From contig JAAILG010000592.1 of assembly GCA_012026655.1 (NCBI GenBank), forward strand, positions 1-64,000: a DNA stretch of 64,000 nucleotides. The letters are read 5' to 3'. The position numbers are program-made. This document shows positions 57,001-60,000 of this stretch, piece by piece. The DNA comes from Hydrolagus affinis. Lineage: Eukaryota. The stretch's first letter is position 1; every line of letters starts with the position of its first letter.

Positions 57001-60000
57001 TACTGGTGCTTCACTGCCTTCAAACTCTCAATATTTACATACATTACAGCATATAAGCAGAGCATTTCGTCCAACTTGTCCATGCAGTATTTGTACACCA
57101 TACAAGCCTCAACCCCTCCTAATCCTATTTATTACATGTGCATCATGTTTCCTCTTAAATGCTTTGACACTTTTCGTTTCAAACAGTACTTCTATCAGTG
57201 AGTTCCACGTTTGGTCCATTCTCAGTGTAAAGCAGATCCTCCTAAATTACCCGTTAGATATTCTACTTTATTGATGCCCCACTTTGGAGCCACCAATAAC
57301 AGCCAATTTTACTTCAAACCCAACATCACTCATACCAATATTACATGTTTGTTTCCTGTAGATTTCTCTGATAACTTAGATTACTCACTCATTGGTGGGA
57401 ATTCGAAGGACACTGGGGGGGAGGGACTCATTCCATTCATATCCTGCAAGCCAAAGTTCTAATGATTAGGGTGGTCCTAGTTGGACAAGGTGTGGAAAAG
57501 CTTGCCAGACAATGATATCAATGGCAATTTATGTGAATTTAGCAGGTTAGACTCCACCAGTATCCTCGTGCACAAACTGGGGTACTCCAGCATTAGCTCT
57601 TGCAAACTTCACCTGATACTTTCCGGAATTAGGTAAATAAGATGAACTTCTCCAGGGAGAATGTGTATTTCATTCCAATAAATATTTAGGATTTAGAAAT
57701 TACTTTATCAATACAATATCATTACTAACTGGATGAAAACATTTATGGTATTTGCATTGGCTATTTGAATTTACATTAAAACCGCTAAAAGATAACAAAC
57801 CAGAACAAGCATTAAATTCTTGAAACTTGAAACAGACACTGCTACAATGGTGATGATGATTCTGATCCAGCATGAATCGAGAGAGCAATTTAGTTTTGTA
57901 AGTTCACGGAAGTCGATTTCAAATGCTGAATTCGTTGTCCAGCAGTAAAAAGTAGATTTGGCGATGCAAATATTTATGAAGATTTAAACCTTGCGGCCTA
58001 CTCTGAAGATTAACGTTATTTTTTATGTACCTACAAGTCAGTCGAATCCGCAAGGGTGAACTAACAGCCAACTGCCTTCACGATTCAATGGGCCAGCTGA
58101 TAAAAAGTGAGTACACACGCCGCCAGTTGAAACCCATCATCTAAAACTACCAGCGTTGGAAATAATCGAAACGATTATCAGCGAAGCTTTCCTCTACACC
58201 CACCATGAGCCGCCCGACGCATGCAGCCAGCTGCTCCGCAAAAAGCCGTGTGTCCGAGCAGGGAGGCGCTCGCTTGCTGAGCCAACGAAAGGTTGAGGTT
58301 GACAATAACATCGCTCCCACGGGAGCACCGGCCGCTCGACAGACAAACATCATCACACTTTCCCCAATGGCGCAGCCGCTCGTCTTCAATTCTCCCCACA
58401 CAACTGAACTGCCGCCACAGCCTCAGCGGCGTAATAAAGCCGCGACAAGCGCCAGCCCGGGGTAGGACTGAAGTGCGGCCCATTTATCCCTATAATAAAA
58501 TAAACTATATATATTTATATAACTGTACAGTATATAACTATATATTTTTTTAAAAAGCAAAAACCCTTCTATTAATTCCAGACAAATGCCTCTGAAGCCG
58601 CCGCGGAAGCTGAGAGAGAGTCTGTCACCATGGTAACAGGTTTGAATCTCCTCCCTCCCAACCGCCTCACGCTCGCTACATGACGCAGGCCGGAAATCGT
58701 CACTCCTCCCCCCCTCCCCCTCCCAAGCGTCTACCCATGGTTCTCAGAGGGGGCAAATTTGAAGGGGGCCTTTCATGTCAACCGTTTCTTTTAATCCTGG
58801 GGGATTTTGGGGGGGTTTGAAATTACCCTTTCGCCAGCCGCACTGGGGACGCCCCCTCCCCACCCGGCCTCGGCACCGCGCCCGTCCCCCGCTCGGAAAG
58901 TTGGTCCCTTGTGAGTGAATTCTCGGCGCAGCGCGGGTCCCGGGGTCTTGGTTTCCAATGATGTCTGAAGTGAGGTCTGAGCGCGGTGCCCTGTGGTCTG
59001 ATGCCGAGACCCTGGCGCTCATCGCCATCTGGAGTGAGGAGAACGTGCAGACTGCGCTGGACGAGCAGCTGAGGAACAGCCACGTCTTTAAATTCATCTC
59101 GTCGCAGCTCCTGGACCAGGGTTATATCCGAACCCCCGAGCAGTGCCGTATCCGCATCAAGGGGCTGAAGAGGAAATACACGCTGGCCAAGGACAGCATC
59201 AAGCGGGGCTGCAGCGCGAGCGGCAGGAAGATCTGCAGGTTTTACGAGCAGCTCGATGCCGTGCTCGGCTCCAGGATCGGTAACGACCGCTCCGTAGTCA
59301 TGGACACAATCGCGACGCCCAACCAGCCTCAGGACATTAAAGAGGAGCAGAACAGTCCGCGGTCTGATGTCAGTCAGAGAGTTGAATGCCGGAATGGCCA
59401 TTGTTCTTCAGAGGAGCCAGATCTTCCCCTGGGGGAGACCAGCACCCGGCAATTCGAACCACAACCTTCTACCAGCGCTTTTTGTAGTAAGTTAATTTAG
59501 TTCAATAAATTGAACTGGCATACTTGTTCTTAGCTTGTGATATTGTTTCCTTAGAACTGTCTGACGTAAAGCGAATAAAGCATGCTACTACTTACTACAA
59601 CAACAACAAAATTATAGTTGTATAGCGCCTTTCACGTTAGGAGGACGTCCCAAGGTACTATACTCAGGTACAATTGACGATGTGTTTTTTTTTGGCGATT
59701 TTTATAAACTTTCTTCTCCACTCCCTTCATAACAAAAGCAATCTTCAGCAACATATATGGAACGCTGAAATCCTCACGCCCAGGTCTCCGCTTTGGGCTG
59801 AATGATTTTCCTCTGGCTGTGGTGAGAATCTGTGCGCTGTTTCACGTGAAAGAGATAAACACAATTTGTTGCCGAGTCGACTTGATTTAAATACAGTTGA
59901 GTCACGATGAGTGAAAGCTAGAAATTCTTGCCCCACGACGATCAATGTAATTATGTGAATTGTTCCATCTTTGTATATTTGTGAAACCTCGATGCCCAAA

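What the first reader, a model, noticed from the sequence alone, without database searches (positions are those of the whole stretch)
58958..59500. Unnamed Myb/SANT-like (Harbinger-type) gene head-to-head with NUBPL
Seen: an intact 176-codon exon with a complete trihelix/Myb-SANT-like domain, host-like GC3-rich codons and a strong donor, 474 nt from the NUBPL ATG. No DDE transposase ORF or obvious TIRs occur in the window. Known: this domain family is the DNA-binding partner protein of PIF/Harbinger transposons and has been domesticated repeatedly in vertebrates (NAIF1, MSANTD genes). As I recall, the human genes upstream of NUBPL are GPR33 and DTD2, not an MSANTD. Inference: possibly a lineage-specific domestication that co-opted the antisense side of a housekeeping promoter.
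Basis: partly seen in the sequence, partly recalled or inferred. Interest (0 to 1): 0.68.

Follow-up and report, generated by a model that had tools for sequence, protein, structure and literature searches.

The report
Conserved Myb/SANT gene beside NUBPL
This is the first exon of a real, conserved cartilaginous-fish gene for a small DNA-binding protein of transposon-related type, sharing a promoter island with NUBPL; it has close relatives in bony vertebrates, so it is an uncharacterised member of a known family rather than a new invention.

Summary
ATG 58958 opens 176 codons plus one base and ends at 59486, before a GTAAGT donor (59487). Residues 13-101 match Pfam PF13837 (Myb/SANT-like, trihelix; E=1e-19). 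NUBPL runs on the minus strand, and the two ATGs are 474 nt apart inside one CpG island. No transposase ORF or convincing terminal inverted repeats were found.

It is not lineage-specific in the sense proposed. Six named shark and ray gene models are 88-90% identical over all 176 residues and diverge exactly at the donor. Their names are inconsistent: "uncharacterized", "MSANTD2 isoform X2", "ZKSCAN2-like". The full protein is about 291 aa: trihelix domain, disordered acidic linker, basic patch, one long C-terminal helix.

In trees, this clade is sister (98/93) to an unnamed bony-vertebrate family (coelacanth, newt, birds, turtle, elephant, teleosts). Six gene models of that family are fused to NAXD.

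Best reading: an old jawed-vertebrate Myb/SANT gene of the Harbinger-derived kind, here paired head-to-head with NUBPL. Transposon origin is inferred from the literature, not shown here. Synteny, dN/dS, expression and placement against named MSANTD1/2 could not be tested. The GC3-rich codons match the CpG island, not the neighbouring genes.

The parts
58958..59486 (+). First coding exon of the Myb/SANT-like gene: 176 codons plus the first base of a split codon (phase 1)
   Evidence: Orthologues are 152-158 of 170-176 residues identical over the exon. Six of the eight listed proteins diverge from one another right after ...STSAFC, one reads on into the intron, and one isoform leaves earlier by an internal splice.
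58994..59260 (+). Trihelix Myb/SANT-like DNA-binding domain (residues 13-101)
   Evidence: PF13837, E=1e-19. Arabidopsis GT-1: E=1.3e-3 by sequence, 3.3e-10 by family profile. AlphaFold2 pLDDT is 80-96 per 10-residue block over residues 11-100 of orthologue P0002. Best fold match is GT-1, target TM 0.70. 101-103 of the first 105 residues are identical to the six orthologues.
59273..59485 (+). Acidic Ser/Pro-rich linker (residues 106-176) with invariant blocks QDIKEE, SQRVEC, NGHCSSEEP and RQFEPQPSTSAFC
   Evidence: 52-55 of 71 residues identical to six orthologues; 45 of 71 columns invariant. Predicted disordered, pLDDT about 45-54.
59487..59492 (+). Splice donor GTAAGT
   Evidence: Read. The next residue in orthologues is T or N (codon A + two bases), which fits phase 1. 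P0006 reads on into the intron as the window does. Exon 2 is not in the window: tblastn with P0002 and P0009 finds nothing in 59500-64000.
58484..58957 (.). 474-nt region between the two ATGs: putative bidirectional promoter and 5' UTRs
   Evidence: Seen by eye and named from recalled consensus sequences: TGACGCA (58681-58687), CCGGAAAT (58690-58697), a C-rich run (58705-58724), and an AT-rich block next to the NUBPL ATG (58484-58560). No transcription start data.
58731..58766 (+). Upstream block conserved in another species; contains an upstream ATG (58737-58739)
   Evidence: tblastn of model P0008 (which read through its own upstream region) against the window: 22 of 52 identical over 58650-58802, with a run of 12 identical residues, LPMVLRGGKFEG. 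Could be a promoter element, 5' UTR or short upstream ORF; not resolved.
58150..59330 (.). CpG island covering NUBPL exon 1, the intergenic region and most of the Myb exon
   Evidence: GC 0.564 and CpG observed/expected 0.92 (86 CpG), against 0.381 and 0.39 for the whole window.
58405..58483 (-). NUBPL first coding exon (26 codons plus 1 nt; basic presequence-like N-terminus), donor GT at 58404-58403
   Evidence: Read. The phase fits exon 2. No Pfam match, as expected for a targeting peptide. The assignment is an inference from reading frame and splice phase. The joined model was not searched.
56232..56372 (-). NUBPL exon 2 with the P-loop (..GKGGVGKST..)
   Evidence: PF10609 profile positions 2-21, E=1.9e-4, 21.4 bits, below the cut-off of 27.1 for this short piece taken alone.
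45822..54402 (-). Five further NUBPL exon-bearing ORFs: 54163-54402, 50441-50623, 49324-49518, 47614-47769, 45822-45956
   Evidence: PF10609 profile positions 28-66, 75-108, 101-138, 135-170 and 167-207, E from 7.4e-7 to 3.5e-15. Exons beyond profile position 207 were not found.

Best explanation
The feature is exon 1 of a single-copy, conserved protein-coding gene of cartilaginous fishes.

The protein is about 291 aa in the complete ray orthologue. It has four parts: an N-terminal trihelix Myb/SANT-like DNA-binding domain, a disordered acidic linker with a few invariant short motifs, a basic patch (..PKKAKKH..) that looks like a nuclear localisation signal, and one long C-terminal helix built of 11-residue EKF(I/L)RY-type units.

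The gene starts in the same CpG island as NUBPL and points the other way, so the two most likely share a bidirectional promoter.

It is the cartilaginous-fish counterpart, most likely the orthologue, of an unnamed bony-vertebrate gene that lies directly upstream of NAXD. Both belong to the PF13837 group of vertebrate Myb/SANT genes, to which the literature assigns an origin from the Myb-like gene of Harbinger transposons.

Proposed working: a nuclear protein that binds DNA through the trihelix domain and recruits partners through the helix and linker, as a transcription or chromatin regulator.

Shown: exon, domain, conservation, layout, predicted fold, sister relation, the CpG island and divergent arrangement.

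Inferred: promoter sharing, nuclear localisation, DNA binding, partner binding, transposon origin, orthology rather than old paralogy.
For: - Exon and domain.
- Orthologues: 8 of 54 candidates passed. Six are named, from Hemitrygon, Cetorhinus (two isoforms), Scyliorhinus canicula, S. torazame and Mustelus. They are 88-90% identical over the exon, 97% query coverage for the eukprot model (P0008) and 100% for the rest. The exception is the Cetorhinus X3 isoform (93% over 68% of the query), which leaves the exon earlier by an internal splice. The other proteins part from one another at the donor.
- Constraint: 143 of 176 columns are invariant in 6 sequences. Domain 101-103 of 105, linker 52-55 of 71. 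Ray against basking shark: 166 of 176.
- Single copy: one locus in the window, and only three 50%-identity clusters of this type in the 1.84-billion-protein library (P0005, P0007, P0009).
- Not a transposon: 0 of 144 long ORFs match a transposase, no flanking inverted repeats, and an intron of more than 4.5 kb.
- Relatives: the Latimeria protein (residues 1-260) finds the ray protein at E=7e-39, 36% identity over 95%. Every named protein above it in that list is from a bony vertebrate. Every named cartilaginous-fish protein falls in the window's clade.
- Trees: shark clade 100/98, bony clade 99/98, the two together 98/93 (59 rows). With 15 long or multi-repeat rows removed, 98/92 and 98% of 200 bootstrap trees (44 rows).
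- NAXD link: PF13837+PF01256 models P0010, P0011, P0012 and P0167. P0071 runs on into NAXD-like sequence. P0081 (624 aa) I count as fused from its length and layout alone.
- Structure of P0002 with a 56-row alignment: mean pLDDT 74.4. The 10-residue blocks over residues 11-100 are 80-96. Helix 199-268 has blocks of 88-98 over residues 201-270. Best fold match is GT-1, probability 1.00, target TM 0.70.
- CpG island.
- Literature (PMC9392472; outline, section 5 part 1, sections 8, 13 and 14, and passages read): MSANTD1 and MSANTD2 are most similar to one group of Harbinger Myb-like proteins. Such proteins bind DNA and a transposase-type partner.
Against: - The stem branches are long (0.47 and 0.48 changes per site), while the depth inside the shark clade is about 0.05. 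That fits old paralogy or separate capture of related elements as well as orthology with a burst of change.
- The neighbour differs (NUBPL here; NAXD in six bony-vertebrate fused models), and the gene downstream of the window's copy is unseen.
- The C-terminal helical module is not specific to the two clades. A profile built from bony sequences alone scores P0002 at E=7e-11, but also P0129 at 1.2e-9 and P0142 at 1.3e-7 from other clades.
- Many rows of the bony clade are unnamed, so a cartilaginous-fish member hidden among them cannot be excluded.
- There is no expression evidence, no dN/dS and no synteny.
- No transposon protein was compared here, so the Harbinger origin rests on the paper and on Pfam family membership.
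- The fold-search E-values are weak (0.047; 0 of 160 matches at E<=0.001).
Confidence: 0.6

Rival explanations
1. Old paralogue. The shark gene and the NAXD-linked bony-vertebrate gene are duplicates from before the split of the two lineages (for instance from the early vertebrate genome duplications), and each lineage kept a different copy.
For: Long stem branches on both sides (0.47 and 0.48) against shallow crowns. Different neighbours: NUBPL here, NAXD in six bony-vertebrate fused models.
Against: The named taxa are complementary: no named cartilaginous-fish protein in the bony clade and no bony-vertebrate protein in the shark clade. This reading needs two reciprocal losses. PMC9392472 (section 5 part 1) found no co-duplicated flanks for the other MSANTD genes, but that says nothing about this one.
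Confidence: 0.2
2. One reading: a separate domestication in cartilaginous fishes of a Harbinger Myb-like gene that landed on the antisense side of the NUBPL promoter.
For: Harbinger Myb-like genes were domesticated several times in vertebrates (PMC9392472, sections 5 and 13). The position differs from that of the bony-vertebrate relatives. The Myb + basic patch + C-terminal helix layout is widespread among single-domain PF13837 proteins, so a shared layout does not prove a shared host-gene ancestor.
Against: The sister relation of the two clades has strong support, with no other sampled sequence between them. The exon boundary falls in the same linker, before the basic patch, in both families. 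No transposon remains lie around the exon. No transposon proteins were in the tree, so this test is incomplete.
Confidence: 0.12
3. It is simply the orthologue of a named gene (MSANTD2, as NCBI labels three of the shark models, or MSANTD1).
For: Names given by a source: 'myb/SANT-like DNA-binding domain-containing protein 2 isoform X2' in 3 of 8 hits. PMC9392472 reports MSANTD1 and MSANTD2 in cartilaginous fishes, and gives human MSANTD1 as 278 aa in three exons, close to the 291 aa here.
Against: The names disagree among orthologues: 2 'uncharacterized', 1 'ZKSCAN2-like', 3 'MSANTD2 isoform X2', 2 unnamed. MSANTD2 is 559 aa in human (PMC9392472), against 291 aa here. The nearest family by reciprocal search is an unnamed one; its elephant member is labelled 'ZSCAN29-like', not MSANTD1. 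No named MSANTD1 or MSANTD2 sequence could be fetched, so there was no direct test.
Confidence: 0.06
4. A decaying transposon copy or a non-functional pseudo-exon that happens to remain open.
For: A 194-aa open frame occurs by chance in 19 of 2000 shuffles of this GC-rich stretch. No expression data.
Against: 143 of 176 columns are invariant across 6 sequences from sharks, a ray and this window. Similarity stops at the donor. The Pfam domain is full length. No transposase or terminal repeats.
Confidence: 0.02

Closest known systems
Unnamed bony-vertebrate Myb/SANT-like gene upstream of NAXD (Latimeria P0010, Pleurodeles P0012, Albula P0162, Danionella P0163; bird, turtle, elephant and teleost entries)
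   Same: Sister clade in the domain tree (98/93; 98/92). About 46-54% identity in the domain. Same order of parts: trihelix domain, acidic linker, basic patch, C-terminal helix ending ..MLGQM... Similar length: 291 aa against 318-330 aa.
   Different: Neighbour: NAXD, with fused models, against NUBPL head-to-head here. The shark protein has one extra 11-residue unit in the helix. Long branches separate the two.
MSANTD1 / MSANTD2 (Harbinger Myb-like-derived genes; Etchegaray et al. 2022, PMC9392472)
   Same: Per the paper: a single trihelix Myb-like domain, single-copy host genes, origin dated to the base of jawed vertebrates, presence in cartilaginous fishes. That they belong to the PF13837 type is recalled, not tested here. 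Three shark orthologues carry the MSANTD2 name.
   Different: The paper does not mention NUBPL, NAXD or sharks (0 occurrences each).
ZSCAN20 / ZSCAN29-type proteins (SCAN + two PF13837 domains, with or without KRAB and C2H2 fingers)
   Same: Same Pfam domain.
   Different: P0002 has no SCAN domain, KRAB box or zinc fingers. Proteins of that layout (P0052, P0086, P0125) fall in a different part of the tree.
Arabidopsis GT-1 trihelix DNA-binding domain (PDB 2ebi, 2jmw)
   Same: The only solved relative found: E=1.3e-3 by sequence, 3.3e-10 by profile. Best fold match, target TM 0.65-0.70, rmsd 2.2-3.2 over 67-70 columns.
   Different: A plant transcription factor with 24% identity. Nothing beyond the domain is shared.
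NAIF1 and the Harbinger3 Myb-like protein (partners of HARBI1 and the Harbinger transposase)
   Same: The working model of a small trihelix protein that binds DNA and a protein partner (PMC9392472, section 14).
   Different: The paper places NAIF1 with MSANTD3 and MSANTD4 in the other Harbinger group. No Myb_DNA-bind_5 (PF13873) match was listed for P0001 even at E up to 1; that NAIF1 belongs to PF13873 is recalled, not tested.

Membership tests
Pfam PF13837 Myb_DNA-bind_4 (trihelix Myb/SANT-like) | Profile match above the curated cut-off, over the whole domain | tested here: met
   71.2 bits against a cut-off of 27, E=1e-19, profile positions 4-88 of 89.
Pfam PF13837 Myb_DNA-bind_4 (trihelix Myb/SANT-like) | Trihelix fold like GT-1 | tested here: met
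   AlphaFold2 model of orthologue P0002: helices 15-25, 28-36, 41-53, 60-82, 96-104; 10-residue blocks over residues 11-100 at pLDDT 80-96. Best PDB fold matches are GT-1, probability 1.00, target TM 0.70 and 0.65, but E only 0.047 and 0.098. Profile against PDB: GT-1 at 3.3e-10.
Pfam PF13837 Myb_DNA-bind_4 (trihelix Myb/SANT-like) | Sequence-specific DNA binding | not testable with these tools
   Needs a binding assay.
Harbinger Myb-like-derived host genes (MSANTD family in the sense of PMC9392472) | [quoted passage not shown] | not tested
   No transposon protein library was on hand. 0 of 40 relatives scanned carried a transposase domain. The link rests on the paper's statement about MSANTD1 and MSANTD2; that they share this Pfam family is recalled.
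Harbinger Myb-like-derived host genes (MSANTD family in the sense of PMC9392472) | Single copy at a conserved genomic position in different species | tested here: inconclusive
   One locus in the window. One gene per named species among the hits, with Cetorhinus isoforms on one contig. Position in other genomes could not be seen.
Harbinger Myb-like-derived host genes (MSANTD family in the sense of PMC9392472) | Purifying selection (dN/dS well below 1) | tested here: inconclusive
   Protein level only: 143 of 176 invariant columns, and domain more conserved than linker. No orthologue DNA, so no dN/dS.
Active PIF/Harbinger transposon | DDE transposase ORF, terminal inverted repeats, target-site duplication | tested here: not met
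   0 of 144 ORFs of at least 72 aa match a transposase. The 25 inverted pairs shown (of 26) are short and 71-100% complementary, and none brackets the exon in a meaningful way. The 3' side of the gene lies outside the window.
MSANTD2 orthologue (NCBI label on three shark models) | About 559-aa protein orthologous to named MSANTD2 | tested here: inconclusive
   The complete orthologue is 291 aa, against 559 aa in human (PMC9392472). Labels disagree among orthologues. No reference MSANTD2 sequence was available for a tree.
ZSCAN20/29 type | SCAN domain plus two PF13837 domains (plus zinc fingers) | tested here: not met
   P0002 has PF13837 only. SCAN-bearing relatives sit elsewhere in the tree.
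NAXD-linked bony-vertebrate Myb/SANT gene | Falls with that family in a tree; reciprocal nearest family | tested here: met
   Sister clades at 98/93 and 98/92. Reciprocal searches. Sister, not nested.
NAXD-linked bony-vertebrate Myb/SANT gene | NAXD immediately downstream on the same strand | not testable with these tools
   The window ends 4.5 kb after exon 1. No PF01256 match in the window's scanned ORFs. No fused shark model among the 3 of 698 longer candidates that passed.
Bidirectional (head-to-head) promoter pair | Divergent genes whose starts lie within about 1 kb in one CpG island | tested here: inconclusive
   Divergent orientation, ATGs 474 nt apart, one CpG island with observed/expected 0.92. 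Transcription starts and co-expression are unknown. NUBPL exon 1 is assigned by frame and phase only.

The most novel reading that the evidence does not exclude
This locus and its NAXD-linked sister represent a further ancient jawed-vertebrate gene of the Harbinger Myb-like-derived kind. The human-centred survey of 2022 did not list it. In cartilaginous fishes it came to sit back-to-back with NUBPL in one CpG island and changed quickly on the stem lineage (new partner or target), then froze: 96-98% domain identity across sharks, a ray and this species.
Probability: 0.35. Interest if true: 0.5.

Novelty: new member of a known kind. Interest (0 to 1): 0.33.

Why it matters
It adds a conserved, uncharacterised small DNA-binding protein to the set of vertebrate genes thought to come from Harbinger transposons. 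It also shows that the automatic names on its shark orthologues are unreliable.

If the sister relation to the NAXD-linked gene holds, the family dates to before the split of cartilaginous and bony vertebrates. It then offers a clean case for asking how such a gene changes neighbours and promoters while keeping its protein.

This is useful for annotation and for students of transposon domestication. It does not open a new kind of biology.

Tried and rejected
Replaced by ORF-by-ORF scans.
- Self-association of the C-terminal helix (two copies of P0002 residues 177-291): no verdict (score 0.02 against a mark of 0.32; the alignment was not used). This counts neither for nor against.
- Heptad check of the helix: best a/d occupancy only 0.55. 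I therefore call it a long helix with 11-residue units, not a proven coiled coil.
- C-terminal profile that included the shark rows: circular. Redone with bony rows only, it showed that the module is widespread and so no proof of orthology.
- Search for exon 2 and the alternative 3' exons of the shark isoforms in 59500-64000: nothing.
- NUBPL exons beyond profile position 207: not found in the 149 and 90 short minus-strand ORFs scanned.
- Rfam on the whole window: one borderline tRNA only. Tandem repeats in 57000-64000: none.
- ESM Atlas: only generic PF13837 cluster names.
- Paper searches: PF13837 + Harbinger gave 2 papers, 1 listed, on fire ants. NAXD + Myb + SANT + read-through: none of the 10 listed papers (170 held at least 3 of the 4 terms) contains NAXD. 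'SANT-like DNA-binding' with shark, elasmobranch or Harbinger: 0 occurrences of the phrase in the 12 papers listed. NUBPL + 'bidirectional promoter': 0 papers.
- MSANTD5 is described as specific to placental mammals (passages of 10.1101/2025.08.21.671216). MSANTD7 appears only in a protein list (passage of PMC10220248). Neither helps.
- A script error (one row placed in two groups) was rerun correctly.
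Full report
**What is there.** The window holds no N. By its best protein matches it comes from a cartilaginous fish, not from human. On the plus strand an ATG at 58958 (a second follows at 58961) opens a frame of 176 codons. The exon ends one base later, at 59486, before GTAAGT (59487-59492), so the intron is in phase 1. Residues 13-101 match Pfam PF13837 (Myb_DNA-bind_4) at E=1e-19, 71.2 bits against a cut-off of 27, over profile positions 4-88 of 89. No other family came near (next best E=0.1). 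The only solved relative is the trihelix domain of Arabidopsis GT-1: E=1.3e-3 with the single sequence and 3.3e-10 with a family profile. An open frame of this length is not rare in such GC-rich DNA. 19 of 2000 shuffles reached 194 aa, and the antisense strand has a 194-aa shadow ORF without any family match. The domain match and the orthologues carry the case.

**Surroundings.** I scanned stop-to-stop ORFs against Pfam in three batches: 144 of at least 72 aa on both strands, 149 minus-strand ORFs of 33-71 aa between 36000 and 58700, and 90 more.
- Six minus-strand ORFs match PF10609 ('NUBPL iron-transfer P-loop NTPase') in collinear order, profile positions 2-207, from 56388 down to 45822. 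The P-loop exon is 56232-56372.
- An ATG at 58483, followed by 26 codons rich in basic residues and a GT at 58404, joins that exon in phase.
- NUBPL exon 1 is assigned by frame and phase only. I did not build or search the joined models of either gene; each was searched exon by exon.
- Further down the minus strand, a 1306-aa ORF (13737-17654) is the large exon of a p190 RhoGAP. It is closer to the ARHGAP5 chain than to the other p190 chain in the PDB, 245.7 against 151.3 bits over the same domain. The order NUBPL then ARHGAP5 matches my recollection of the human order, which I did not check.
- The stretch 58150-59330 is a CpG island: GC 0.564 and CpG observed/expected 0.92, against 0.381 and 0.39 for the window. 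It covers NUBPL exon 1, the intergenic region and most of the Myb exon.
GC3 is 0.73 here and 0.69 in NUBPL exon 1. It is 0.38 in the ARHGAP5-like exon and 0.22-0.46 in the ORFs holding the inner NUBPL exons. The richness belongs to the island.

**Not a transposon copy.** None of the 144 long ORFs matches a transposase. The inverted repeats found in 56400-64000 are short and imperfect, and none brackets the exon sensibly. tblastn with the orthologues finds one locus in the window and no second exon within the 4.5 kb that remain, so the intron is longer than that. The 3' side of the gene is outside the window, so the check for terminal repeats is one-sided.

**Orthologues.** The word-indexed protein search returned 8 proteins of 54 candidates. 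Six carry names from Hemitrygon akajei, Cetorhinus maximus (two isoforms), Scyliorhinus canicula, S. torazame and Mustelus asterias. Two are unnamed.
- Seven are 88-90% identical to the exon, over 97% of it for the eukprot model (P0008) and the whole of it for the other six. The eighth, an internally spliced Cetorhinus isoform, is 93% identical over 68%.
- Six of the eight diverge from one another immediately after ...STSAFC, which confirms the donor. The unnamed P0006 instead reads on into the intron as the window does, and the Cetorhinus X3 isoform leaves the exon earlier.
- The labels disagree: 'uncharacterized protein' twice, 'MSANTD2 isoform X2' three times, 'ZKSCAN2-like isoform X3' once. 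The gene is therefore predicted elsewhere but has no settled name.
- The first 105 residues are 101-103 of 105 identical, the linker 52-55 of 71. 143 of 176 columns are invariant in six sequences.
- Ray and basking shark share 166 of 176 residues, while the window shares 152-158 of 170-176 with each of the others. In the tree the window's sequence branches first within the clade (99/76). This suggests a lineage outside the sampled sharks and ray, but I did not try to identify the species.

**The whole protein.** The complete form is seen in the ray (P0002, 291 aa) and, minus the linker, in one basking-shark isoform (P0009). After the exon come a basic patch (..PKKAKKH..) and a region built of 11-residue units (EKFIRY.., EKFLRY.., ERFARL..) ending in ..MLGQMM... 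AlphaFold2 with a 56-row alignment gives a mean pLDDT of 74.4. The trihelix domain is confident: 10-residue blocks of 80-96 over residues 11-100, with helices at 15-25, 28-36, 41-53, 60-82 and 96-104. Residues about 106-198 are disordered. One long helix spans 199-268, with blocks of 88-98 over residues 201-270. The best fold matches in the PDB are the two GT-1 entries (probability 1.00, target TM 0.70 and 0.65), though with weak E-values: 0.047 and 0.098, and none of 160 matches at E<=0.001.

**Relatives.** The exhaustive search of the 1.84-billion-protein library gave 2140 proteins at E<=0.001, 556 at 1e-10 and 40 at 1e-30. The best single-domain hits outside the shark group are 48-54% identical. 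They belong to one family, which the 'longer' search also found as the N-terminal part of models labelled NAXD in Latimeria and Pleurodeles (PF13837 + PF01256; 3 of 698 candidates passed).
- Searching back with residues 1-260 of the Latimeria protein among shorter proteins gave 109 of 285 candidates. The named ones above the shark proteins are all bony vertebrates: Albula, Danionella, Melospiza, Apteryx, Elephas, Chloebia, Pavo, Oryzias, Chelydra, Periophthalmus, Astyanax and Latimeria. The ray protein follows at E=7e-39, 36% identity over 95% of the query.
- Six models of this family run on into NAXD: P0010, P0011, P0012 and P0167 by their Pfam labels, P0071 by its NAXD-like sequence, and P0081 by its length and layout. 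I read this as the gene lying just upstream of NAXD on the same strand in bony vertebrates.
- No fused model, and no second closer homologue from a named cartilaginous fish, appeared. That is weak evidence, because those searches are word-indexed and capped.

**Trees.** A local profile found the domain in 194 of 246 stored proteins.
- The FastTree run used 186 rows. It left out P0137 by choice and 7 rows with fewer than 80 profile positions matched. It put the shark clade (9 rows, 98) and the bony clade (53 rows, 99) in one unresolved group of 77 rows.
- For a careful IQ-TREE run I picked 59 of the 186 rows by hand: all 7 distinct shark rows, 18 of the 53 bony rows, 10 from the neighbouring clades and 24 from the rest. 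Result: shark 100/98, bony 99/98, the two together 98/93.
- After dropping 15 long or multi-repeat rows (44 rows), the joint clade kept 98/92 and appeared in 98% of 200 bootstrap trees.
- The alignment has only 106-107 columns, and the stems are long (0.47 and 0.48) against a depth of about 0.05 inside the shark clade.

A Pfam scan of 40 proteins from the trees (38 relatives plus P0002 and P0162 themselves) showed three further layouts: SCAN + two Myb domains, with or without KRAB and zinc fingers (P0052, P0086, P0125; the ZSCAN20/29 layout), in a different part of the tree; TINF2_N + 5-8 Myb domains; and KRAB + 7-8 Myb domains. No transposase domain appeared in any of the 40.

The C-terminal module is shared more widely. 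A profile built from bony rows alone scores P0002 at E=7e-11, but also P0129 (1.2e-9) and others from distant clades. The shared layout therefore does not by itself prove orthology.

The exon boundary falls in the same poorly aligned linker before the basic patch in both families. 13 of 14 N-terminal fragments of the bony family lose similarity at alignment columns 324-331, while the shark boundary is at columns 375/376. The positions are comparable but not provably identical.

**Literature.** Etchegaray et al. 2022 (PMC9392472) is the key paper. I read the outline with abstract, section 5 part 1, sections 8, 13 and 14, and passages found by term.
[quoted passage not shown] - MSANTD1 and MSANTD2 are most similar to one and the same group of Harbinger proteins.
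- ZSCAN20, MYPOP, PRDM11 and TSNARE1 are named as further candidates.
- The survey started from human proteins. NUBPL, NAXD and 'shark' do not occur in the text.
- It summarises that Harbinger Myb-like proteins and NAIF1 bind DNA and the transposase or HARBI1, and that the plant relatives act in chromatin complexes (section 14).

I found no paper on this particular gene. The searches are those, in the held library only.

**Interpretation.** The exon belongs to a real, constrained, single-copy gene. Its protein most likely enters the nucleus by the basic patch, binds DNA by the trihelix domain, and engages partners through the long helix and the invariant linker motifs. This makes it a small transcription or chromatin regulator, like other members of this kind. 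All of that is inferred from family knowledge and from the model.

It most likely shares a bidirectional CpG-island promoter with NUBPL. By eye, the intergenic 474 nt hold a TGACGCA, a CCGGAAAT and a C-rich run; I recall these as typical of such promoters. A 36-nt block (58731-58766) is conserved in another species' upstream region.

The gene is best seen as the cartilaginous-fish counterpart of the NAXD-linked bony-vertebrate gene. Orthology with a burst of change on the stems is my first choice. Old paralogy with reciprocal loss, and separate capture of related elements, remain open.

The position beside NUBPL may still be lineage-specific.

**What stayed unchecked.**
- Gene order in other genomes, dN/dS and expression.
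- Placement against named MSANTD1 and MSANTD2 and against transposon proteins.
- Whether mammals, humans included, keep a member. Human sequence was not examined.

Noticed in passing
related proteins P0010, P0011, P0012, P0167, P0071, P0081 (not in the window): In coelacanth, a newt, a songbird and teleost-like entries, the sister Myb/SANT gene is merged with NAXD (PF13837 + PF01256) in gene models. This is either recurrent read-through or mis-merging of neighbouring genes, or a real conserved fusion transcript. Other PF13837 models are likewise merged with housekeeping genes, for example P0045 with PAICS-type domains.
   Followed up: partly
window 58731-58766 (within 58650-58802): A block about 190-225 nt upstream of the Myb ATG reads LPMVLRGGKFEG in one frame, identical to the upstream read-through of another species' model (P0008). 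It contains an upstream ATG (58737-58739) that opens a short ORF ending near 58821. Could be a conserved promoter element, 5' UTR or upstream ORF.
   Followed up: partly
window 13737-17654 (-) and 19000-21100: A 1306-aa single exon of a p190 RhoGAP, closer to ARHGAP5 than to the other p190 chain in the PDB, lies downstream of NUBPL on the same strand. A GC-rich stretch (GC 0.50-0.52) at 19-21 kb is probably its promoter island.
   Followed up: partly
window 53032-53101 (-): A tRNA-Ala(TGC)-like sequence in a NUBPL intron. Rfam gives 29.2 bits against a gathering score of 29. It may be a tRNA gene or the head of a tRNA-derived SINE.
   Followed up: no
window 56742-56803, 59594-59655, 60615-60669; also 60285-60341 and 63616-63673: Dispersed repeat copies (..GCGCCTTTCACGT..GGACGTCCCAAGG..; 85% identity between the two 62-nt copies) flank the exon in the NUBPL intron and the Myb intron. 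They look like an interspersed SINE-type family and are unrelated to the gene.
   Followed up: no
related proteins P0013, P0014, P0028, P0018, P0019: Among the best library hits are very long proteins with a TINF2 N-terminal domain followed by 5-8 PF13837 domains, and KRAB boxes followed by 7-8 PF13837 domains. These arrays of this domain are unnamed here.
   Followed up: no
window 58484-58560: A 77-nt almost pure A/T block (TATA-rich) sits directly upstream of the inferred NUBPL ATG, in the middle of the CpG island. This is odd for a 5' UTR. It may mark the NUBPL core promoter or a small insertion.
   Followed up: no
orthologue P0002 residues 206-240 against the bony-vertebrate family: The shark and ray proteins carry one extra 11-residue unit of the EKF(I/L)RY-type repeat in the C-terminal helix compared with the bony-vertebrate sister family.
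   Followed up: partly
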